The notes below the pieces were generated by a model that was given only the letters and a program-made list of their open reading frames with translations, ran no database searches and was not told the origin of the DNA. From the NCBI RefSeq assembly GCF_030013205.1, contig NZ_CP122648.1: a DNA stretch of 64,000 nucleotides; one strand, given 5' to 3'. Position 1 is the stretch's first letter. Each line of letters begins with the position of its first letter. Origin of the DNA: Escherichia coli (GTDB taxonomy: Bacteria > Pseudomonadota > Gammaproteobacteria > Enterobacterales > Enterobacteriaceae). Shown piece after piece: positions 16,753 to 20,293 of this stretch. The translations under genes and the position numbers were made by a program.

Positions 16753-18987
16753 ATGCAGGAAAACTGCTGGGATGAGGAATCCGCTTCCTTTATTCCGGTC
16801 GAACCAGAATCCGATCCGATGAACGTCAATTTTGACAAGCTGTCCCCTGAAGTACAGAACGCGGTCCTGGTTAAGTTCGACACATGTGAAAACATCACCG
16901 TTGATATGGTTATTAGCGCACAGGAATTGTTGCAGGAAGACATGGCAACATTCGACGGACATATCGTTGAAGCGTTGATGAAAATGCCAGAAGTTAACGC
17001 CATGTATCCGGAGCTTAAGTTGCACGCCATTGGGTGGGTTAAGCATAAATGTATTCCTGGTGCTAAATGGCCCGAAATTCAGGCAGAGATGCGCATCTGG
17101 AAAAAACGTCGCGAAGGTGAACGCAAGGAAACCGGAAAATACACGTCTGTTGTTGATCTCGCCCGCGCCAGAGCCAATCAACAGTACACTGACAATTCAA
17201 CAGGAAAAATCAGCCCGGTCATTGCTGCCACTCATCGCGAATACAAGCAGACATGGAAAACACTGGATGACGAACTGGCCTACGCTCTCTGGCCTGGTGA
17301 TGTGGATGCCGGAAACATTGACGGCAGCATCCATCGCTGGGCAAAAAATGAAGTTATCGACAACGACCGCGAAGACTGGAAGCGTATCTCGGCATCAATG
17401 CGCAAACAGCCTGATGCCCTTCGCTACGACCGCCAGACTATTTTTGGCCTTGTCCGTGAACGTCCGATCGACATTCACAAAGACCCTGTGGCACTGAACA
17501 AATACATTACTGAATACCTGACTACAAAGGGCGTGTTTGAAGATGAAGGAAGAAATCAGAGCGCAACTGATACTCTCTCGTCGCCAGTACCAGAAACTGA
17601 TGCAGTGGAAACGGCAATTCCGGACAACGAAAAAACCGAATGCAAAGTGGAAGTCGAACCATCTGTAGAGCGTGAGGGGCCGTTCTACTTCCTCTTCACC
17701 GACAAGGATGGCGAAAAATATGGTCGCGCAAACAAACTTTCTGGTCTGAATAAGGCGCTGACTGCAGGGGCTACTGAAATCACGAAAGAAGAATATTTTG
17801 CCCGTAAAAACGGTACATACTCAGGTTCACAACAAAATACTGGTGCATCTGACACGACCGCACAACCAGAGCCGGTAAAAGTTACCGCTGACGAAGTAAA
17901 CAAAATTATGCAGGCAGCCAATATCAGCCAGCCTGACGCCGATAAGTTGCTTGCTGTATCACGTGGTGAATTTGTTGCAGGGATTAGCGACCCGAATGAT
18001 CCGAAATGGGTGAAGGGGATTGAAACCCGCGATTCAGTGAATCAGAACCAGCAAGAAACGGAACAGAACGACCAGAAAGCGGAACAAAACAGCCCAAATG
18101 CGTTACAAAACGAGCCAGAAACGAAACAACCTGAGCCAGTAGCGCAACAGGAAGCGGAAAAAGTCTGCACCGCCTGCGGTCAGACCGGCGGCGGCAACTG
18201 CCCTGATTGTGGTGCGGTGATGGGCGACGCAACATACCAAGAAACATTCGATGACAAGAACCAGGTTGAAGTTCAGGAAGACGATTCGGAGAAAATGGAA
18301 GGCGCTGAACATCCACACAAAGAGAATGCTGGCAGCGCTCAGGATCACGCCAGCGATAGTGAAACTGGCGAGACGGCAGATCCCTTAATTACGGTGAACG
18401 GTCATCACGTTATCACATCCACCAGCAGGACGTGTGACCATCTAATGATCGACCTTGAAACCATGGGAAAAAATCCTGATGCCCCGATTATCTCAATAGG
18501 TGCAATATTTTTCGATCCGCAAACCGGAGATATGGGACCGGAATTTAGTAAGACTATCGATCTGGAAACTGCTGGCGGAGTCATTGATCGGGACACCATT
18601 AAATGGTGGCTTAAGCAATCACGCGAAGCGCAATCTGCCATTATGACCGATGAAATCCCGTTAGATGATGCACTGTTACAATTGCGGGAATTTATCGACG
18701 AAAACTCCGGTGAATTTTTTGTTCAGGTCTGGGGAAATGGAGCCAACTTCGACAACACGATTTTGCGCCGTTCATACGAACGGCAGGGGATCCCCTGCCC
18801 GTGGCGTTACTACAACGATCGCGATGTACGCACAATCGTTGAGCTGGGGAAAGCCATAGACTTCGATGCCAGAACGGCTATTCCATTCGAAGGTGAGCGC
18901 CATAATGCACTTGATGACGCCCGTTACCAGGCAAAATACGTTTCAGCAATCTGGCAAAAACTGATCCCGAATCCGGTTGATTTTTAA
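16753..18987 (+). CDS. Phage exonuclease, C-terminal DEDDh 3'-5' exonuclease domain (YdfE-like, full length)
   Basis: 744 aa; C-terminal motifs DLETMG / WGNGANFD / HNALDDA; central acidic Gln/Glu-rich linker with CTACG…CPDCG. Confidence 0.7.
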   Translation: MQENCWDEESASFIPVEPESDPMNVNFDKLSPEVQNAVLVKFDTCENITVDMVISAQELLQEDMATFDGHIVEALMKMPEVNAMYPELKLHAIGWVKHKCIPGAKWPEIQAEMRIWKKRREGERKETGKYTSVVDLARARANQQYTDNSTGKISPVIAATHREYKQTWKTLDDELAYALWPGDVDAGNIDGSIHRWAKNEVIDNDREDWKRISASMRKQPDALRYDRQTIFGLVRERPIDIHKDPVALNKYITEYLTTKGVFEDEGRNQSATDTLSSPVPETDAVETAIPDNEKTECKVEVEPSVEREGPFYFLFTDKDGEKYGRANKLSGLNKALTAGATEITKEEYFARKNGTYSGSQQNTGASDTTAQPEPVKVTADEVNKIMQAANISQPDADKLLAVSRGEFVAGISDPNDPKWVKGIETRDSVNQNQQETEQNDQKAEQNSPNALQNEPETKQPEPVAQQEAEKVCTACGQTGGGNCPDCGAVMGDATYQETFDDKNQVEVQEDDSEKMEGAEHPHKENAGSAQDHASDSETGETADPLITVNGHHVITSTSRTCDHLMIDLETMGKNPDAPIISIGAIFFDPQTGDMGPEFSKTIDLETAGGVIDRDTIKWWLKQSREAQSAIMTDEIPLDDALLQLREFIDENSGEFFVQVWGNGANFDNTILRRSYERQGIPCPWRYYNDRDVRTIVELGKAIDFDARTAIPFEGERHNALDDARYQAKYVSAIWQKLIPNPVDF

Positions 18988-19053
18988 TGTTCAACCCTGA
19001 TCGCCGTCCCCGAATTATATTGGCGGCGGTCATGCTGTAAGGCACGTGACCAC

Positions 19054-19305
19054 ATGTACGAATTAACTCTATCGCCAGCAGAGATTCAAGAGATCACGAA
19101 ATACGAGCGATACACAAAACAGCAACACCAGTTAAGGCTGCACGGTATCCCATTTGTAATCGGTCCTAAAAACGAACCAATAGTTCTTCGCAGGGATATT
19201 CCACACGGACTGACTACGATGCCAAAAGCACCTGAACTGGTTTCCGCTGAACCCGATTTTGAGGCGCTGAACAATGGGAAGACCAAGAAAAAACAAAAAA
19301 GATAA
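19054..19305 (+). CDS. Putative excisionase
   Basis: 83-aa ORF immediately upstream of and overlapping int; basic C-terminus. Confidence 0.45.
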   Translation: MYELTLSPAEIQEITKYERYTKQQHQLRLHGIPFVIGPKNEPIVLRRDIPHGLTTMPKAPELVSAEPDFEALNNGKTKKKQKR

Positions 19306-20293
19306 TGCACTACCACCGCGTGTTAGATCGAATGGTTACAGTTACGTATGGAAACCCGAAGGAAGCACAAGAACTATAGGGCTCGGAAGAGTGCGGGAAA
19401 CCAGCGTAGCTAAAGTCTGGCAAAATTATGAGCTGGAAAAAGCAAAACTCCACAACATAATGACAGTAGCTAAATTATGGCACATGTTTATGGACTCCCC
19501 TGCATTTACAGAACTGGCCCCCCGAACCCAAAAAGATTATCGGCAACATCAAAGGGCATTGTTGGCAGTATTCGGAAAAGTGCTTGCTGATAATGTAAAA
19601 ATTGAACAGGTAAGAATTTTCATGGATAAGCGAGGACTTGAGAGCAAGACCCAAGCAAACCATGAACTGGCAAGTCTGAGCCGTGTATACGGATGGGGAT
19701 ATGAGCGTGGGTATGTGAAAAATAATCCATGCAAAGGAGTCAGAAAATTCACACTTAAAGCCCGTACTGTTTACATCACCGATGAACAGTATGCTGCAAT
19801 ATATGCGGAAGCAATTCCACAGTTACGTATTGCAATGGAGATATCCTATCTTTGTGCGGCAAGGCTCGGTGATGTACTCGAGCTGAAATGGCAGGATATT
19901 ATGGAGAAAGGGATTTACATTGAGCAAAACAAGACCGGCACTAAACAAATCAAGGAATGGTCTCCGCGATTACGTACGGCGATCCAGTTAGCCCGAAATG
20001 TATCTTCCGGCACATGCGAGTATGTGATCAACACAACCAAAGGCGGGAAGGTAATAGCCAAGACGCTGAACAACTGGTGGAATCAGGCTAAACGTGCAGC
20101 CGAGCAAAAAGCCGGCGTTCCGTTTGGGTGCAACTTCCATGACATAAAAGCCAAAGGGATTTCACATTACGAAGGCAGCAGTCGCGACAAACAAATTTTC
20201 AGTGGACACAAAACAGAAAATCAGGTGTTGATTTACGATCGTAAAACCAAAATAACACCAACACTGGATTTGCCGCTTGTGGTCAGTAAGTAG
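19274..20293 (+). CDS. int: Tyrosine integrase (lambda Int family)
   Basis: 339 aa; N-terminal arm-binding region like lambda Int; conserved C-terminal Tyr region; 3' end 140 bp from the right att repeat. Confidence 0.9.
   Translation: MGRPRKNKKDNALPPRVRSNGYSYVWKPEGSTRTIGLGRVRETSVAKVWQNYELEKAKLHNIMTVAKLWHMFMDSPAFTELAPRTQKDYRQHQRALLAVFGKVLADNVKIEQVRIFMDKRGLESKTQANHELASLSRVYGWGYERGYVKNNPCKGVRKFTLKARTVYITDEQYAAIYAEAIPQLRIAMEISYLCAARLGDVLELKWQDIMEKGIYIEQNKTGTKQIKEWSPRLRTAIQLARNVSSGTCEYVINTTKGGKVIAKTLNNWWNQAKRAAEQKAGVPFGCNFHDIKAKGISHYEGSSRDKQIFSGHKTENQVLIYDRKTKITPTLDLPLVVSK

What the first reader, a model, noticed from the sequence alone, without database searches (positions are those of the whole stretch)
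16753..18987. 744-aa exonuclease with DEDDh domain and zinc-ribbon linker, with no partner recombinase
The C-terminal 190 aa carry DnaQ-like motifs (DLETMG, WGNGANFD, HNALDDA). The N-terminal 500 aa are uncharacterised and include an acidic Gln/Glu-rich linker with CTACG-x7-CPDCG. No RecT/Bet-type annealing protein is encoded between it and xis, unlike RecE/RecT or Exo/Bet pairs. In K-12 the counterpart (ydfE) is disrupted; this copy appears full length, though its activity and biological role are untested.
Basis: partly seen in the sequence, partly recalled or inferred. Interest (0 to 1): 0.45.

Follow-up and report, generated by a model that had tools for sequence, protein, structure and literature searches.

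The report
Truncated prophage RecE-scaffold 3'-5' exonuclease gene
The 744-aa ORF is the remainder of a very common, already annotated 823-codon E. coli prophage gene that carries a premature stop codon here; the intact protein joins the N-terminal scaffold of the recombination nuclease RecE to a DexA/Rv2179c-type 3'-5' exonuclease, and that domain swap explains why no annealing partner is present.

Summary
The ORF, the DEDDh motifs, the CxxC-x7-CxxC zinc ribbon and the absence of a RecT/Bet gene are all real. The copy is not full length. ORF 16753-18987 is the downstream part of an 823-codon gene (16516-18987) with an in-frame TGG->TAG nonsense codon at 16738-16740. RefSeq annotates the identical sequence (E. 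coli ETEC1748) as a pseudogene with an internal stop. The TAG allele occurs in 7 of 5,426 complete E. coli genomes, all swine isolates.

The N-terminus is not an orphan. Residues 262-626 are homologous to the RecE N-terminal region, and precomputed Pfam labels name it YdfE_N and YdfE_C. The same scaffold, about 93% identical in protein, occurs in other prophages fused to the RecE-type PD-(D/E)XK nuclease and followed by recT. DNA identity (95.7%) ends abruptly at window 18389/18390. The missing annealing protein therefore follows from a module swap: recT travels with the 5'-3' nuclease.

The C-terminal domain belongs to Pfam Rv2179c-like (E 1e-67), the family of T4 DexA, and all five catalytic residues are intact.

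The DEDDh domain DNA is in 75% of complete E. coli genomes, but this architecture has not been characterised experimentally. This is a known family and a decayed copy, so interest is low.

The parts
16516..18987 (+). Complete 823-codon ydfE-family 'exonuclease' gene, here a pseudogene with an internal stop
   Evidence: In-frame translation. PGAP annotation of the 100% identical ETEC1748 sequence is 'internal stop'. The intact 823-aa allele is WP_063085339.1. PHROG 2082 is 823 positions long.
16738..16740 (+). Premature TAG stop at codon 75 (TGG in intact alleles; W75*)
   Evidence: Alignment to the intact allele shows a single G->A difference. The exact 61-mer carrying TAG is found in only 7 of 5,426 complete E. 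coli genomes, all swine isolates.
16753..18987 (+). It could be made only by re-initiation at this ATG.
   Evidence: the ORF listing. AGGA at 16739-16742 lies 10 nt upstream of the ATG (sequence). Re-initiation is inferred, not shown.
16516..17145 (+). N-terminal region (aa 1-210): an alpha/beta subdomain (1-100) and a helical subdomain (101-210). This is probably the YdfE_N region, but the extent of the Pfam label was not determined. The stop codon cuts the first subdomain.
   Evidence: AlphaFold2 model, pLDDT above 90. The protein carries the precomputed Pfam label PF27430 YdfE_N. dN/dS against mEp460 is 0.155-0.156. No informative structural relative was found.
17299..18393 (+). Region homologous to the RecE N-terminal/middle region (aa 262-626; RecE 278-592). 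It includes helical domain C (aa 245-340), a small beta domain (388-432), a conserved motif, the zinc ribbon and an acidic linker.
   Evidence: BLASTP against K-12 RecE, E 3e-60. NCBIfam PRK09709 positions 261-603, E 3e-83, below the family cut-off. The protein carries the precomputed Pfam label PF27432 YdfE_C.
17962..18009 (+). Conserved motif RGEFvaGISDPNDPKW (aa 483-498), the most widely conserved element of the scaffold
   Evidence: Column counts in the 51-sequence alignment A3: G484 in 35 of 36 rows with a residue at that column, P493 in 32 of 40, W498 in 26 of 31. The motif is nearly identical in K-12 RecE.
18166..18210 (+). Four-Cys zinc-ribbon motif CTAC-x7-CPDC (C551, C554, C562, C565)
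   Evidence: Sequence. Weak Pfam DZR hit, E 0.11. Also present in K-12 RecE, with the four Cys and the x7 spacing conserved. Present in only 9 of 51 diverse homologues.
18211..18426 (+). Acidic linker predicted to be disordered (aa 566-637; 17 D/E against 3 K/R)
   Evidence: pLDDT below 50 for aa 567-637 in the full-length model. Composition count.
18389..18390 (+). Mosaic junction. Upstream DNA is shared with recE-type genes; downstream DNA is the DEDDh module.
   Evidence: blastn: gene nt 1-1874 are 95.7% identical to the 900-aa recE-type gene of L009, and nt 1425-1874 are 77% identical to K-12 recE. Both alignments end at nt 1874.
18439..18954 (+). Rv2179c-like / DexA-like DEDDh 3'-5' exonuclease domain (aa 642-813). 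Catalytic codons: D646 (18451-18453), E648 (18457-18459), D746 (18751-18753), H796 (18901-18903), D801 (18916-18918).
   Evidence: PF16473, E 1.3e-67, 227 bits against a cut-off of 27. Closest solved structure by sequence is 8KEL, T4 DexA, E 1.5e-6. Alignment to DexA. Codon coordinates. Foldseek matches to RNase T, Orn and REXO2.
16047..16435 (+). Upstream neighbours in the same orientation: dicB (16047-16229) and a DUF1482/ydfD-like gene (16232-16435)
   Evidence: Pfam DicB E 1.5e-37 and DUF1482 E 6e-23. The same gene order is seen in K-12 Qin, phage mEp460, phage 813R8 and L009.
19054..20293 (+). Downstream neighbours: a DUF4224 gene in the excisionase (xis) position (19054-19305) and a tyrosine integrase (19274-20293). 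No gene lies between them and the exonuclease gene.
   Evidence: Pfam. RefSeq annotation.

Best explanation
The feature is a recently inactivated allele (W75*, TAG) of the ydfE-family 'exonuclease' gene. That gene is the last early-left gene before xis/int in DicB/Qin-type lambdoid prophages. Here it sits in a ~20-kb degraded prophage between tRNA-Ser/hyaA and yccA.

The intact 823-aa protein is modular, with ordered domains joined by disordered linkers. A YdfE_N head and a YdfE_C middle part make up the scaffold. The middle part is shared with RecE and contains a conserved RGEF..ISDPNDPKW motif, a 4-Cys zinc ribbon and a disordered acidic tether. The scaffold carries a DexA/Rv2179c-type DEDDh domain that removes nucleotides from 3' ends by two-metal-ion hydrolysis.

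The same scaffold occurs elsewhere with the RecE PD-(D/E)XK 5'-3' nuclease followed by recT. This gene is therefore the product of a module exchange at a sharp junction (window 18389/18390). The exchange replaced the nuclease domain together with the downstream recT by a 3'-5' exonuclease module.

A 3'-5' exonuclease destroys rather than creates the 3' single-stranded tails that annealing proteins use. No SSAP partner is therefore expected.

Shown: the stop codon, the homologies, the junction, intact catalytic residues, purifying selection on the family, and the co-variation of recT with the PD-(D/E)XK domain in the one such locus examined.

Inferred: that the substrate is DNA 3' ends, as for T4 DexA and the E. 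coli homologue EcD; that the scaffold targets or tethers the nuclease as it does in RecE; and that this copy yields no product or only an N-terminally damaged one.
For: - Nonsense codon and pseudogene status.
- Family identity: PHROG 2082, PF16473 E 1e-67, precomputed labels YdfE_N and YdfE_C.
- RecE homology ends where the RecE nuclease domain begins.
- The 900-aa variant P0088 has the same first 633 aa at 93% identity but carries DUF3799. Its locus reads dicB-DUF1482-[gene]-RecT-Lar-DUF1187-Exc-Int.
- Among 51 diverse scaffold homologues, 13 have DUF3799 and 6 have Rv2179c-like.
- The catalytic D, E, D, H and D residues are conserved relative to DexA. T4 DexA is itself a PF16473 member.
- dN/dS is 0.16 for the N-terminal domains and 0.29 overall against phage mEp460.
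- In the phage records mEp460 and 813R8 the gene sits in the same position without an SSAP.
- The window contains no SSAP.
- Published activity of relatives: DexA, and EcD as a 3'-5' DNA exonuclease (PMC12153337); Rv2179c as a 3' exoribonuclease (cited in PMC10534295).
- The RecE N-terminal domain has no known function but enhances linear-linear recombination (PMC11611040).
Against: - No biochemical or genetic data exist for this architecture. The literature search for ydfE found only incidental mentions.
- Substrate could be DNA or RNA; both are documented within PF16473.
- Re-initiation at ATG 16753 cannot be excluded. An AGGA lies 10 nt upstream, so a 744-aa product with an intact catalytic domain might still be made.
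- The genome holds four other places matching this gene. They were not examined.
Confidence: 0.72

Rival explanations
1. One reading: the 744-aa ORF is a complete, functional stand-alone gene translated from ATG 16753.
For: The ATG lies 4 codons after the stop, with an AGGA 10 nt upstream. The whole catalytic domain and most of the scaffold are intact. Only one base differs from an intact allele.
Against: - Intact alleles encode about 823-830 aa; one 90%-identity cluster alone holds 23,183 member sequences.
- The upstream 74 codons are in frame and 93% identical to K-12 ydfE.
- Residues 1-100 form one confidently predicted alpha/beta domain. It would lose three of its five strands.
- That domain is under purifying selection, dN/dS 0.155.
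- PGAP calls the gene a pseudogene.
- The TAG allele is confined to 7 genomes.
Confidence: 0.15
2. The intact gene is a prophage-encoded anti-phage defence nuclease. It would be an 'HREX'-like exonuclease that degrades the modified DNA of superinfecting T-even phages. This copy has lost that function.
For: - A stand-alone E. coli member of the DexA-like family, EcD, was reported to digest 5hmC T4 DNA and to protect against T4 (PMC12153337).
- The DEDDh domain DNA is present in 4,064 of 5,426 complete genomes, with up to 7 places per genome, including cryptic prophages.
Against: - EcD is a different, stand-alone protein. Its cloning primers show that it starts MIDTET.
- The residues proposed for 5hmC recognition are not conserved here: DexA W152 aligns to Tyr, and the D169 loop is absent.
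- The residue whose loss defines the 'defence' form is retained: DexA D90 aligns to Asp.
- PADLOC gives only a generic DEDDh hit, E 1.9e-5.
- The gene sits in the phage early-left operon of phage genomes, which fits a role in the phage's own cycle equally well.
- The HREX claim rests on a single study.
Confidence: 0.15
3. The protein still takes part in phage recombination or replication-end processing. It would use the RecE-like scaffold and an annealing protein supplied in trans by another prophage, or RecA, with the 3'-5' exonuclease trimming flaps or 3' tails.
For: - The scaffold is shared with RecE, whose full-length form enhances linear-linear recombination.
- The gene occupies the position of the recombination genes, next to xis/int.
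- E. coli genomes often carry several such prophages, and recE/recT is present in 1,750 of 5,426 genomes.
Against: - 3'-5' polarity is opposite to that needed to create 3' tails for SSAPs.
- No SSAP is present in this element or window, nor in the early-left regions shown for the two phage records carrying the gene.
- recT follows the gene in the one PD-(D/E)XK-variant locus examined.
Confidence: 0.12
4. The C-terminal domain acts on RNA, as the name-giving Rv2179c exoribonuclease does. It would trim 3' ends of phage or host transcripts or small RNAs from the dicB operon region.
For: Pfam family PF16473 is named for a 3'-5' exoribonuclease. PGAP names the gene '3'-5' exoribonuclease'. The closest structural matches include RNase T, Orn and REXO2.
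Against: - The closest solved relative by sequence is the DNA exonuclease T4 DexA. RNase T also acts on DNA.
- The scaffold is shared with a DNA recombination nuclease.
- No DicF or other curated small RNA was found next to the gene here.
Confidence: 0.1

Closest known systems
E. coli K-12 YdfE (Qin prophage pseudogene b1577) and the RefSeq 'exonuclease' / '3'-5' exoribonuclease' family (WP_063085339.1; PHROG 2082; precomputed Pfam labels YdfE_N + YdfE_C + Rv2179c-like)
   Same: Same gene. It is 93% identical to YdfE over the 255 aa that survive in K-12, has the same neighbours (dicB, ydfD/DUF1482, int), and differs from WP_063085339.1 by the single G->A change at codon 75.
   Different: K-12 lost the 3' part of the gene to IS2E. 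This copy keeps the whole length but has a nonsense codon at position 75.
RecE (exonuclease VIII) of the Rac prophage, with RecT
   Same: The middle part of the scaffold is shared: ours aa 262-626 align to RecE 278-592. This includes the RGEF..ISDPNDPKW motif, the zinc ribbon and the acidic linker. Both genes lie in a lambdoid early-left operon, upstream of the xis/int end. A sister allele (P0088) combines our exact scaffold with the RecE nuclease domain and recT.
   Different: The catalytic domain is DEDDh 3'-5', not PD-(D/E)XK 5'-3'. No trace of DUF3799 is found. The N-terminal head is YdfE_N, not Exonuc_VIII PF06630. No recT follows. The NCBIfam RecE equivalog scores 280 bits against a cut-off of 1269.
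T4 DexA (PDB 8KEL/8KEN) and the E. coli stand-alone homologue EcD ('HREX')
   Same: Same Pfam family: DexA scores 79.9 bits on PF16473. DexA is the best PDB sequence match, E 1.5e-6. The DEDDh catalytic residues are conserved.
   Different: DexA (227 aa) is a single-domain protein, and EcD, judged from its cloning primers, starts directly at the exonuclease motif. Ours carries the domain at the end of a ~640-aa scaffold. DexA-specific loops, including the one holding D169, are absent, and W152 aligns to Tyr. The ability to discriminate 5hmC is therefore not predicted.
Mycobacterium tuberculosis Rv2179c (founder of PF16473)
   Same: Strong full-length match to the family profile: positions 2-177 of 177, E 1e-67.
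   Different: Rv2179c is a stand-alone cellular exoribonuclease acting on 3' overhangs of dsRNA (as cited in PMC10534295). Ours is a C-terminal module of a prophage protein. No direct pairwise match to an Rv2179c chain appeared in the PDB sequence search.
Stand-alone Rv2179c-like exonucleases of temperate phages (e.g. Salmonella phage F1055 gp28, Escherichia phage SKA5)
   Same: 58-61% identical to our C-terminal domain. F1055 gp28 passes PF16473. In F1055 the gene lies two genes upstream of the integrase, separated from it by a small hypothetical ORF in the xis position.
   Different: They lack the YdfE/RecE scaffold entirely; the F1055 protein is 185 aa.

Membership tests
Pfam PF16473 Rv2179c-like 3'-5' exonuclease (DEDDh) | Score above the family gathering threshold over the whole domain | tested here: met
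   227.3 bits against a cut-off of 27, profile positions 2-177 of 177, E 1.3e-67.
Pfam PF16473 Rv2179c-like 3'-5' exonuclease (DEDDh) | DEDDh catalytic residues: Asp and Glu in motif I, Asp in motif II, His-x4-Asp in motif III | tested here: met
   D646/E648 (DLE), D746 (NFD) and H796-x4-D801 (HNALDD) are present. They correspond to DexA D7, E9, D119, H186 and D191. The paper's figure legend prints 'E12', but DexA residue 12 is Gly in the sequence, so E9 is taken as the catalytic Glu. MAFFT placed our His against DexA H190, so the His-x4-Asp match to H186/D191 rests on motif correspondence.
Pfam PF16473 Rv2179c-like 3'-5' exonuclease (DEDDh) | 3'-5' exonuclease activity | not testable with these tools
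   Requires a nuclease assay on the purified protein.
YdfE-family prophage exonuclease (PHROG 2082; YdfE_N + YdfE_C + Rv2179c-like) | Full-length collinear match and the same domain order | tested here: met
   PHROG 2082, 1648 bits, covering positions 80-823 of 823. The in-frame upstream 74 codons supply positions 1-79. Precomputed Pfam architecture of the family.
YdfE-family prophage exonuclease (PHROG 2082; YdfE_N + YdfE_C + Rv2179c-like) | Uninterrupted reading frame, i.e. a functional member | tested here: not met
   TAG at codon 75. RefSeq marks the gene 'internal stop'.
RecE / exodeoxyribonuclease VIII | C-terminal PD-(D/E)XK (DUF3799, PF12684) 5'-3' nuclease domain | tested here: not met
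   No PF12684 hit. phmmer and tblastn with the RecE nuclease domain find nothing. Homology to RecE ends at aa 626.
RecE / exodeoxyribonuclease VIII | Score above the NCBIfam equivalog cut-off (NF007259) | tested here: not met
   280 bits against a cut-off of 1269. Only profile positions 261-603 of 877 are matched.
RecE / exodeoxyribonuclease VIII | Adjacent cognate annealing protein (recT) | tested here: not met
   The next gene downstream is the DUF4224 gene in the xis position. No RecT or Bet homologue is in the window. By contrast, recT follows the PD-(D/E)XK variant.
HREX (DexA / EcD 5hmC-recognising exonuclease) | Residues proposed for 5hmC recognition (DexA W152, D169) | tested here: not met
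   W152 aligns to Tyr, and the loop containing D169 is absent (residues as given in PMC12153337).
HREX (DexA / EcD 5hmC-recognising exonuclease) | Loss of the tetramerisation residue (DexA D90 replaced, as A78 in EcD) in the bacterial 'defence' form | tested here: not met
   The aligned residue is Asp (D718) in the HMMER and MAFFT alignments to DexA.
HREX (DexA / EcD 5hmC-recognising exonuclease) | Protection against T4 and selective cleavage of modified DNA | not testable with these tools
   Requires plaque assays and nuclease assays.

The most novel reading that the evidence does not exclude
The YdfE/RecE N-terminal scaffold may be a general delivery platform that does not depend on nuclease polarity. 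Its conserved RGEF..ISDPNDPKW motif, with the zinc ribbon in some members, would dock the protein on a host or DNA-end target. The flexible acidic tether would then present whichever nuclease is attached.

On this reading the abundant DEDDh version has a distinct, unrecognised job. Examples would be prophage-encoded exclusion of incoming phage DNA, or removal of 3' tails to block competing recombination. It would not be merely a degenerate RecE.
Probability: 0.2. Interest if true: 0.5.

Novelty: already known. Interest (0 to 1): 0.2.

Why it matters
For this window it matters little. The feature is a decayed copy of a gene that RefSeq, PHROGs and Pfam already catalogue.

The family itself deserves a note. 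An 823-aa protein whose nuclease domain DNA is found in about three quarters of complete E. coli genomes, often in several places per genome, has never been characterised. It shares the N-terminal region of RecE, whose function is still unknown. Natural alleles swap a 5'-3' nuclease plus recT for a 3'-5' nuclease on an otherwise about 93%-identical scaffold. These alleles offer a ready-made comparison for asking what that scaffold does.

Tried and rejected
- Full-length model. It showed only separate ordered modules joined by disordered linkers. The zinc ribbon was modelled with low confidence.
- PADLOC. Only a generic CRISPR-associated DEDDh hit, E 1.9e-5.
- Literature. The 'ydfE/Qin/exonuclease' search and the 'full-length RecE' search were swamped by unrelated matches (a surname, and 'receptor'). 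A whole-word 'ydfE' search found only incidental mentions.
- EcD. Its sequence could not be retrieved. The cloning primers show that it starts MIDTET and ends TIPETYD, so it is a stand-alone paralogue and not this gene.
- Regulatory signals. The promoter and terminator scan around the gene found nothing above the shuffled expectation.
- DicF. Absent at Rfam gathering threshold and at E <= 1.
- P22 erf. The region I fetched was the wrong one, so Erf-type SSAPs were tested only through the Pfam scan of eight ORFs and the RefSeq annotation, not by tblastn.
- TAG as a sequencing error. Considered and rejected, because the TAG is present in 7 complete assemblies.
Full report
**Observation.**
The ORF listing finds the reported ORF at 16753..18987 on the + strand, 744 aa, starting with ATG. 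Its C-terminus contains DLETMG, WGNGANFD and HNALDDA. Further upstream lies VCTACGQTGGGNCPDCG, a CxxC-x7-CxxC motif, between Gln/Glu-rich and acidic stretches. The ORF is not a complete gene, however. A 74-codon ORF (16516-16740) lies in the same frame and is separated from it by one TAG codon (16738-16740) and four sense codons. PHROG 2082 ('exonuclease') is 823 positions long, and the 744-aa ORF matches only positions 80-823.

**Origin and status.**
- The region 16400-19060 is 100% identical to E. coli ETEC1748 and five sister swine ETEC chromosomes. There PGAP annotates 16516-18987 as a pseudogene, '3'-5' exoribonuclease domain-containing protein, internal stop'.
- Strain P15-25 carries an allele that differs by about one mismatch over the 2,661-nt query (4909 versus 4915 bits). 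It is annotated as an intact 823-aa 'exonuclease', WP_063085339.1.
- In the 71-nt alignment around codon 75 the only difference is TGG versus TAG.
- The exact 61-mer carrying TAG occurs in 7 of 5,426 complete E. coli genomes, all from swine. A further 134 records hold near-identical versions, nearly all of the listed ones annotated as intact.
- This is therefore a recent, lineage-restricted nonsense mutation and not a sequencing error.
- The surrounding element is a ~20-kb prophage remnant between tRNA-Ser/hyaA and yccA. It has several pseudogenes (tail genes, a truncated DnaT-like replication gene) and lacks the repressor region.

**Domain content.**
- Pfam places an Rv2179c-like 3'-5' exonuclease domain at aa 563-734 of the ORF, which is 642-813 of the 823-aa protein (E 1.3e-67, 227 bits against a cut-off of 27).
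- The best PDB match by sequence is 8KEL/8KEN, the T4 exonuclease DexA (E 1.5e-6). The entries were identified through PMC12153337.
- DexA itself passes PF16473.
- The catalytic residues are all present: D646, E648, D746, H796 and D801 in 823-aa numbering, equal to 567, 569, 667, 717 and 722 in the ORF.
- A full-length AlphaFold2 model gave Foldseek matches to RNase T, oligoribonuclease, REXO2 and Cap18, all DEDDh enzymes.

**The N-terminal ~640 residues are related to RecE.**
- NCBIfam's RecE model (PRK09709) matches aa 159-547 of the ORF at profile positions 261-603 of 877 (E 3e-83). The score is far below the equivalog cut-off.
- BLASTP against K-12 RecE aligns our residues 262-626 with RecE 278-592 (E 3e-60). 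The last ~160 residues are very similar: DKLLA.SRGEFV.GISDPNDPKWVKGI, the zinc ribbon C.ACGQTGG.NCPDCGAVMGDATYQETF, and the acidic stretch ending ETGE.ADP.
- The similarity stops where the RecE nuclease domain begins. PF12684 covers RecE 615-850, and a 2023 review gives the nuclease domain as residues 564-866 (PMC11611040).
- Precomputed Pfam labels for the family are PF27430 (YdfE_N), PF27432 (YdfE_C) and PF16473. The two YdfE models are absent from the local Pfam copy, which explains why one search did not report them.
- That review still describes the RecE N-terminal domain as being of unknown function. It notes that full-length RecE enhances linear-linear recombination.

**Module swap.**
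- The homologue search with residues 1-633 returned, among hundreds of 823-830-aa DEDDh proteins, a set of 900-aa proteins (for example P0088). These are 93% identical over 99% of the query but carry PF12684/DUF3799, the RecE-type PD-(D/E)XK domain.
- The locus of P0088 reads dicB, DUF1482, the 900-aa gene, RecT, Lar/RalR-like, DUF1187, Exc, Int.
- At the DNA level, our gene nt 1-1874 are 95.7% identical to that gene, and nt 1425-1874 are 77% identical to K-12 recE. Both alignments end at nt 1874, which is window 18389.
- In the one PD-(D/E)XK locus examined, recT comes directly after the gene. The DEDDh module replaces the nuclease domain, and recT and its neighbours are also absent.
- This is the simplest explanation for 'no partner recombinase'. 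It also makes mechanistic sense: a 3'-5' exonuclease does not generate the 3' tails that annealing proteins load on.
- The window contains no RecT, Bet, lambda Exo, Gam or RecE-nuclease homologue (tblastn). The ORFs between the replication genes and the integrase are DnaT-like, YdfC, a hypothetical protein, DicB, DUF1482, DUF4224 and Int.
- The phage records mEp460 and 813R8 have the same order dicB-ydfD-exo-xis-int without an SSAP. The arrangement is therefore a property of the family and not of this remnant.

**Further mosaicism.**
- Among 51 diverse full-length scaffold homologues, 20 carry the K-12-RecE-type head (Exonuc_VIII, PF06630), 13 carry DUF3799, 6 carry Rv2179c-like, and one carries a fused RecT domain.
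- The 813R8 gene has a highly diverged N-terminal region (pS 0.7-0.8) but an almost identical DEDDh domain (pS 0.017).
- Stand-alone versions of the DEDDh domain (185 aa in phage F1055) occur in other temperate phages. In F1055 the gene lies two genes upstream of the integrase.
- The scaffold is a narrow family: 254 cluster representatives among 1.84 billion.
- The family is very abundant in E. coli. The DEDDh domain DNA is in 4,064 of 5,426 complete genomes, at 8,105 places and up to 7 per genome. The RecE-nuclease-plus-recT segment is in 1,750 genomes.

**Structure.**
- AlphaFold2 on residues 1-345 with a 48-sequence alignment gave pLDDT 92 and pTM 0.54. It shows an alpha/beta subdomain (1-100), a helical subdomain (105-205), a disordered stretch (223-235) and a second helical domain (247-340), the last being the part shared with RecE.
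- The full-length model adds a small beta-hairpin/helix domain (388-432) and the moderately confident conserved motif (475-495).
- It also shows long disordered segments at 347-383, 438-457, 500-549 and 567-637.
- Column counts show that the RGEF..ISDPxDPxW motif is the most widely conserved element of the scaffold. The four Cys occur in only 9 of the 51 sequences.

**Selection and consequence of the stop.**
- Against the mEp460 allele, dN/dS is 0.155 for residues 1-100, 0.156 for 101-210, 0.30 for the middle part, 0.42 for the (little diverged) DEDDh domain, and 0.29 overall.
- The family, including the part upstream of the stop, is therefore under purifying selection.
- The stop falls inside the first predicted domain. 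A product re-initiated at M80 would lack three of that domain's five strands.
- An AGGA at 16739-16742 lies 10 nt before the ATG, so re-initiation is conceivable but untested.

**Function.**
[quoted passage not shown] They also include the stand-alone E. coli homologue EcD, reported to degrade 5hmC DNA and to protect against T4 (PMC12153337).
- Rv2179c is a 3' exoribonuclease (as cited in PMC10534295).
- EcD is not this gene. Its cloning primers encode MIDTET...TIPETYD.
- The residues proposed for 5hmC recognition are not conserved here: W152 aligns to Tyr and the D169 loop is missing. The D90 equivalent is retained.
- I therefore commit to the following. The intact protein is a scaffold-tethered 3'-5' exonuclease acting on DNA 3' ends during prophage induction or early infection. 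It is not an SSAP-coupled recombination nuclease. The copy in this window is inactivated or at best crippled.
- Defence, trans-recombination and RNA-processing roles remain open rivals.

**Verdict.**
The gene family is already catalogued and the exact sequence is annotated as a pseudogene, so novelty is 'already known' and interest is low (0.2). The natural RecE-nuclease/DEDDh swap on one scaffold is worth noting for anyone studying the RecE N-terminal domain, whose function is still unknown.

Noticed in passing
window 1-20350: The host element is a ~20-kb degraded lambdoid prophage between tRNA-Ser/hyaA and yccA. The tRNA is cut by the window start. Tail fibre, J and tail-assembly genes are fragments, and one further gene has an internal stop. 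The truncated DnaT-like replication gene (14191-14652, minus strand) abuts ydfC, so the cI/cro (dicA/dicC) immunity region appears to be deleted.
   Followed up: partly
window 15046-15606 (-): A hypothetical ORF (WP_046788612.1; 151 aa as annotated, 186 aa from the first GTG) has a coiled-coil-like N-terminal part and a C-terminal CPQC...CPAC four-Cys motif. It sits between ydfC and dicB, where K-12 Qin carries dicF. It has no significant Pfam match.
   Followed up: partly
window 14600-16600: No DicF small RNA is detectable, although dicB is present. The only match is a sub-threshold hit to the sRNA family STnc100 at 15870-16024 (+), 33.5 bits against a gathering score of 47, just upstream of dicB.
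   Followed up: partly
window 555-753 (-): Full-length Rfam match to IS009 (RF02111, 223 bits) near the tRNA-Ser end of the prophage.
   Followed up: no
window ~10141-10703 and ~5073-6158: The remnant still carries an apparently intact ParD/ParE-type (RelE/ParE family) toxin-antitoxin pair and a DNA methyltransferase gene, according to the RefSeq annotation of the identical sequence.
   Followed up: no
L009:6001-9505; alignment A3: One of the 51 diverse scaffold homologues has a RecT domain within the same polypeptide (Pfam RecT, E 1e-42). This could be a natural RecE-RecT fusion or a gene-calling read-through. Which member it is was not determined.
   Followed up: no
NZ_CP122719.1 (ETEC1748 genome, outside the window): The genome holds four other places matching this exonuclease gene (five in all). 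Intact paralogues, and possibly a recE/recT-type copy, may exist elsewhere in the same cell.
   Followed up: no
L012:2510-3067 and L013:2498-3071: Stand-alone 185-aa versions of the DEDDh domain occur in temperate phages such as F1055. In F1055 the gene is two genes upstream of the integrase. In phage SKA5 the gene is split into two ORFs, probably by a frameshift.
   Followed up: partly
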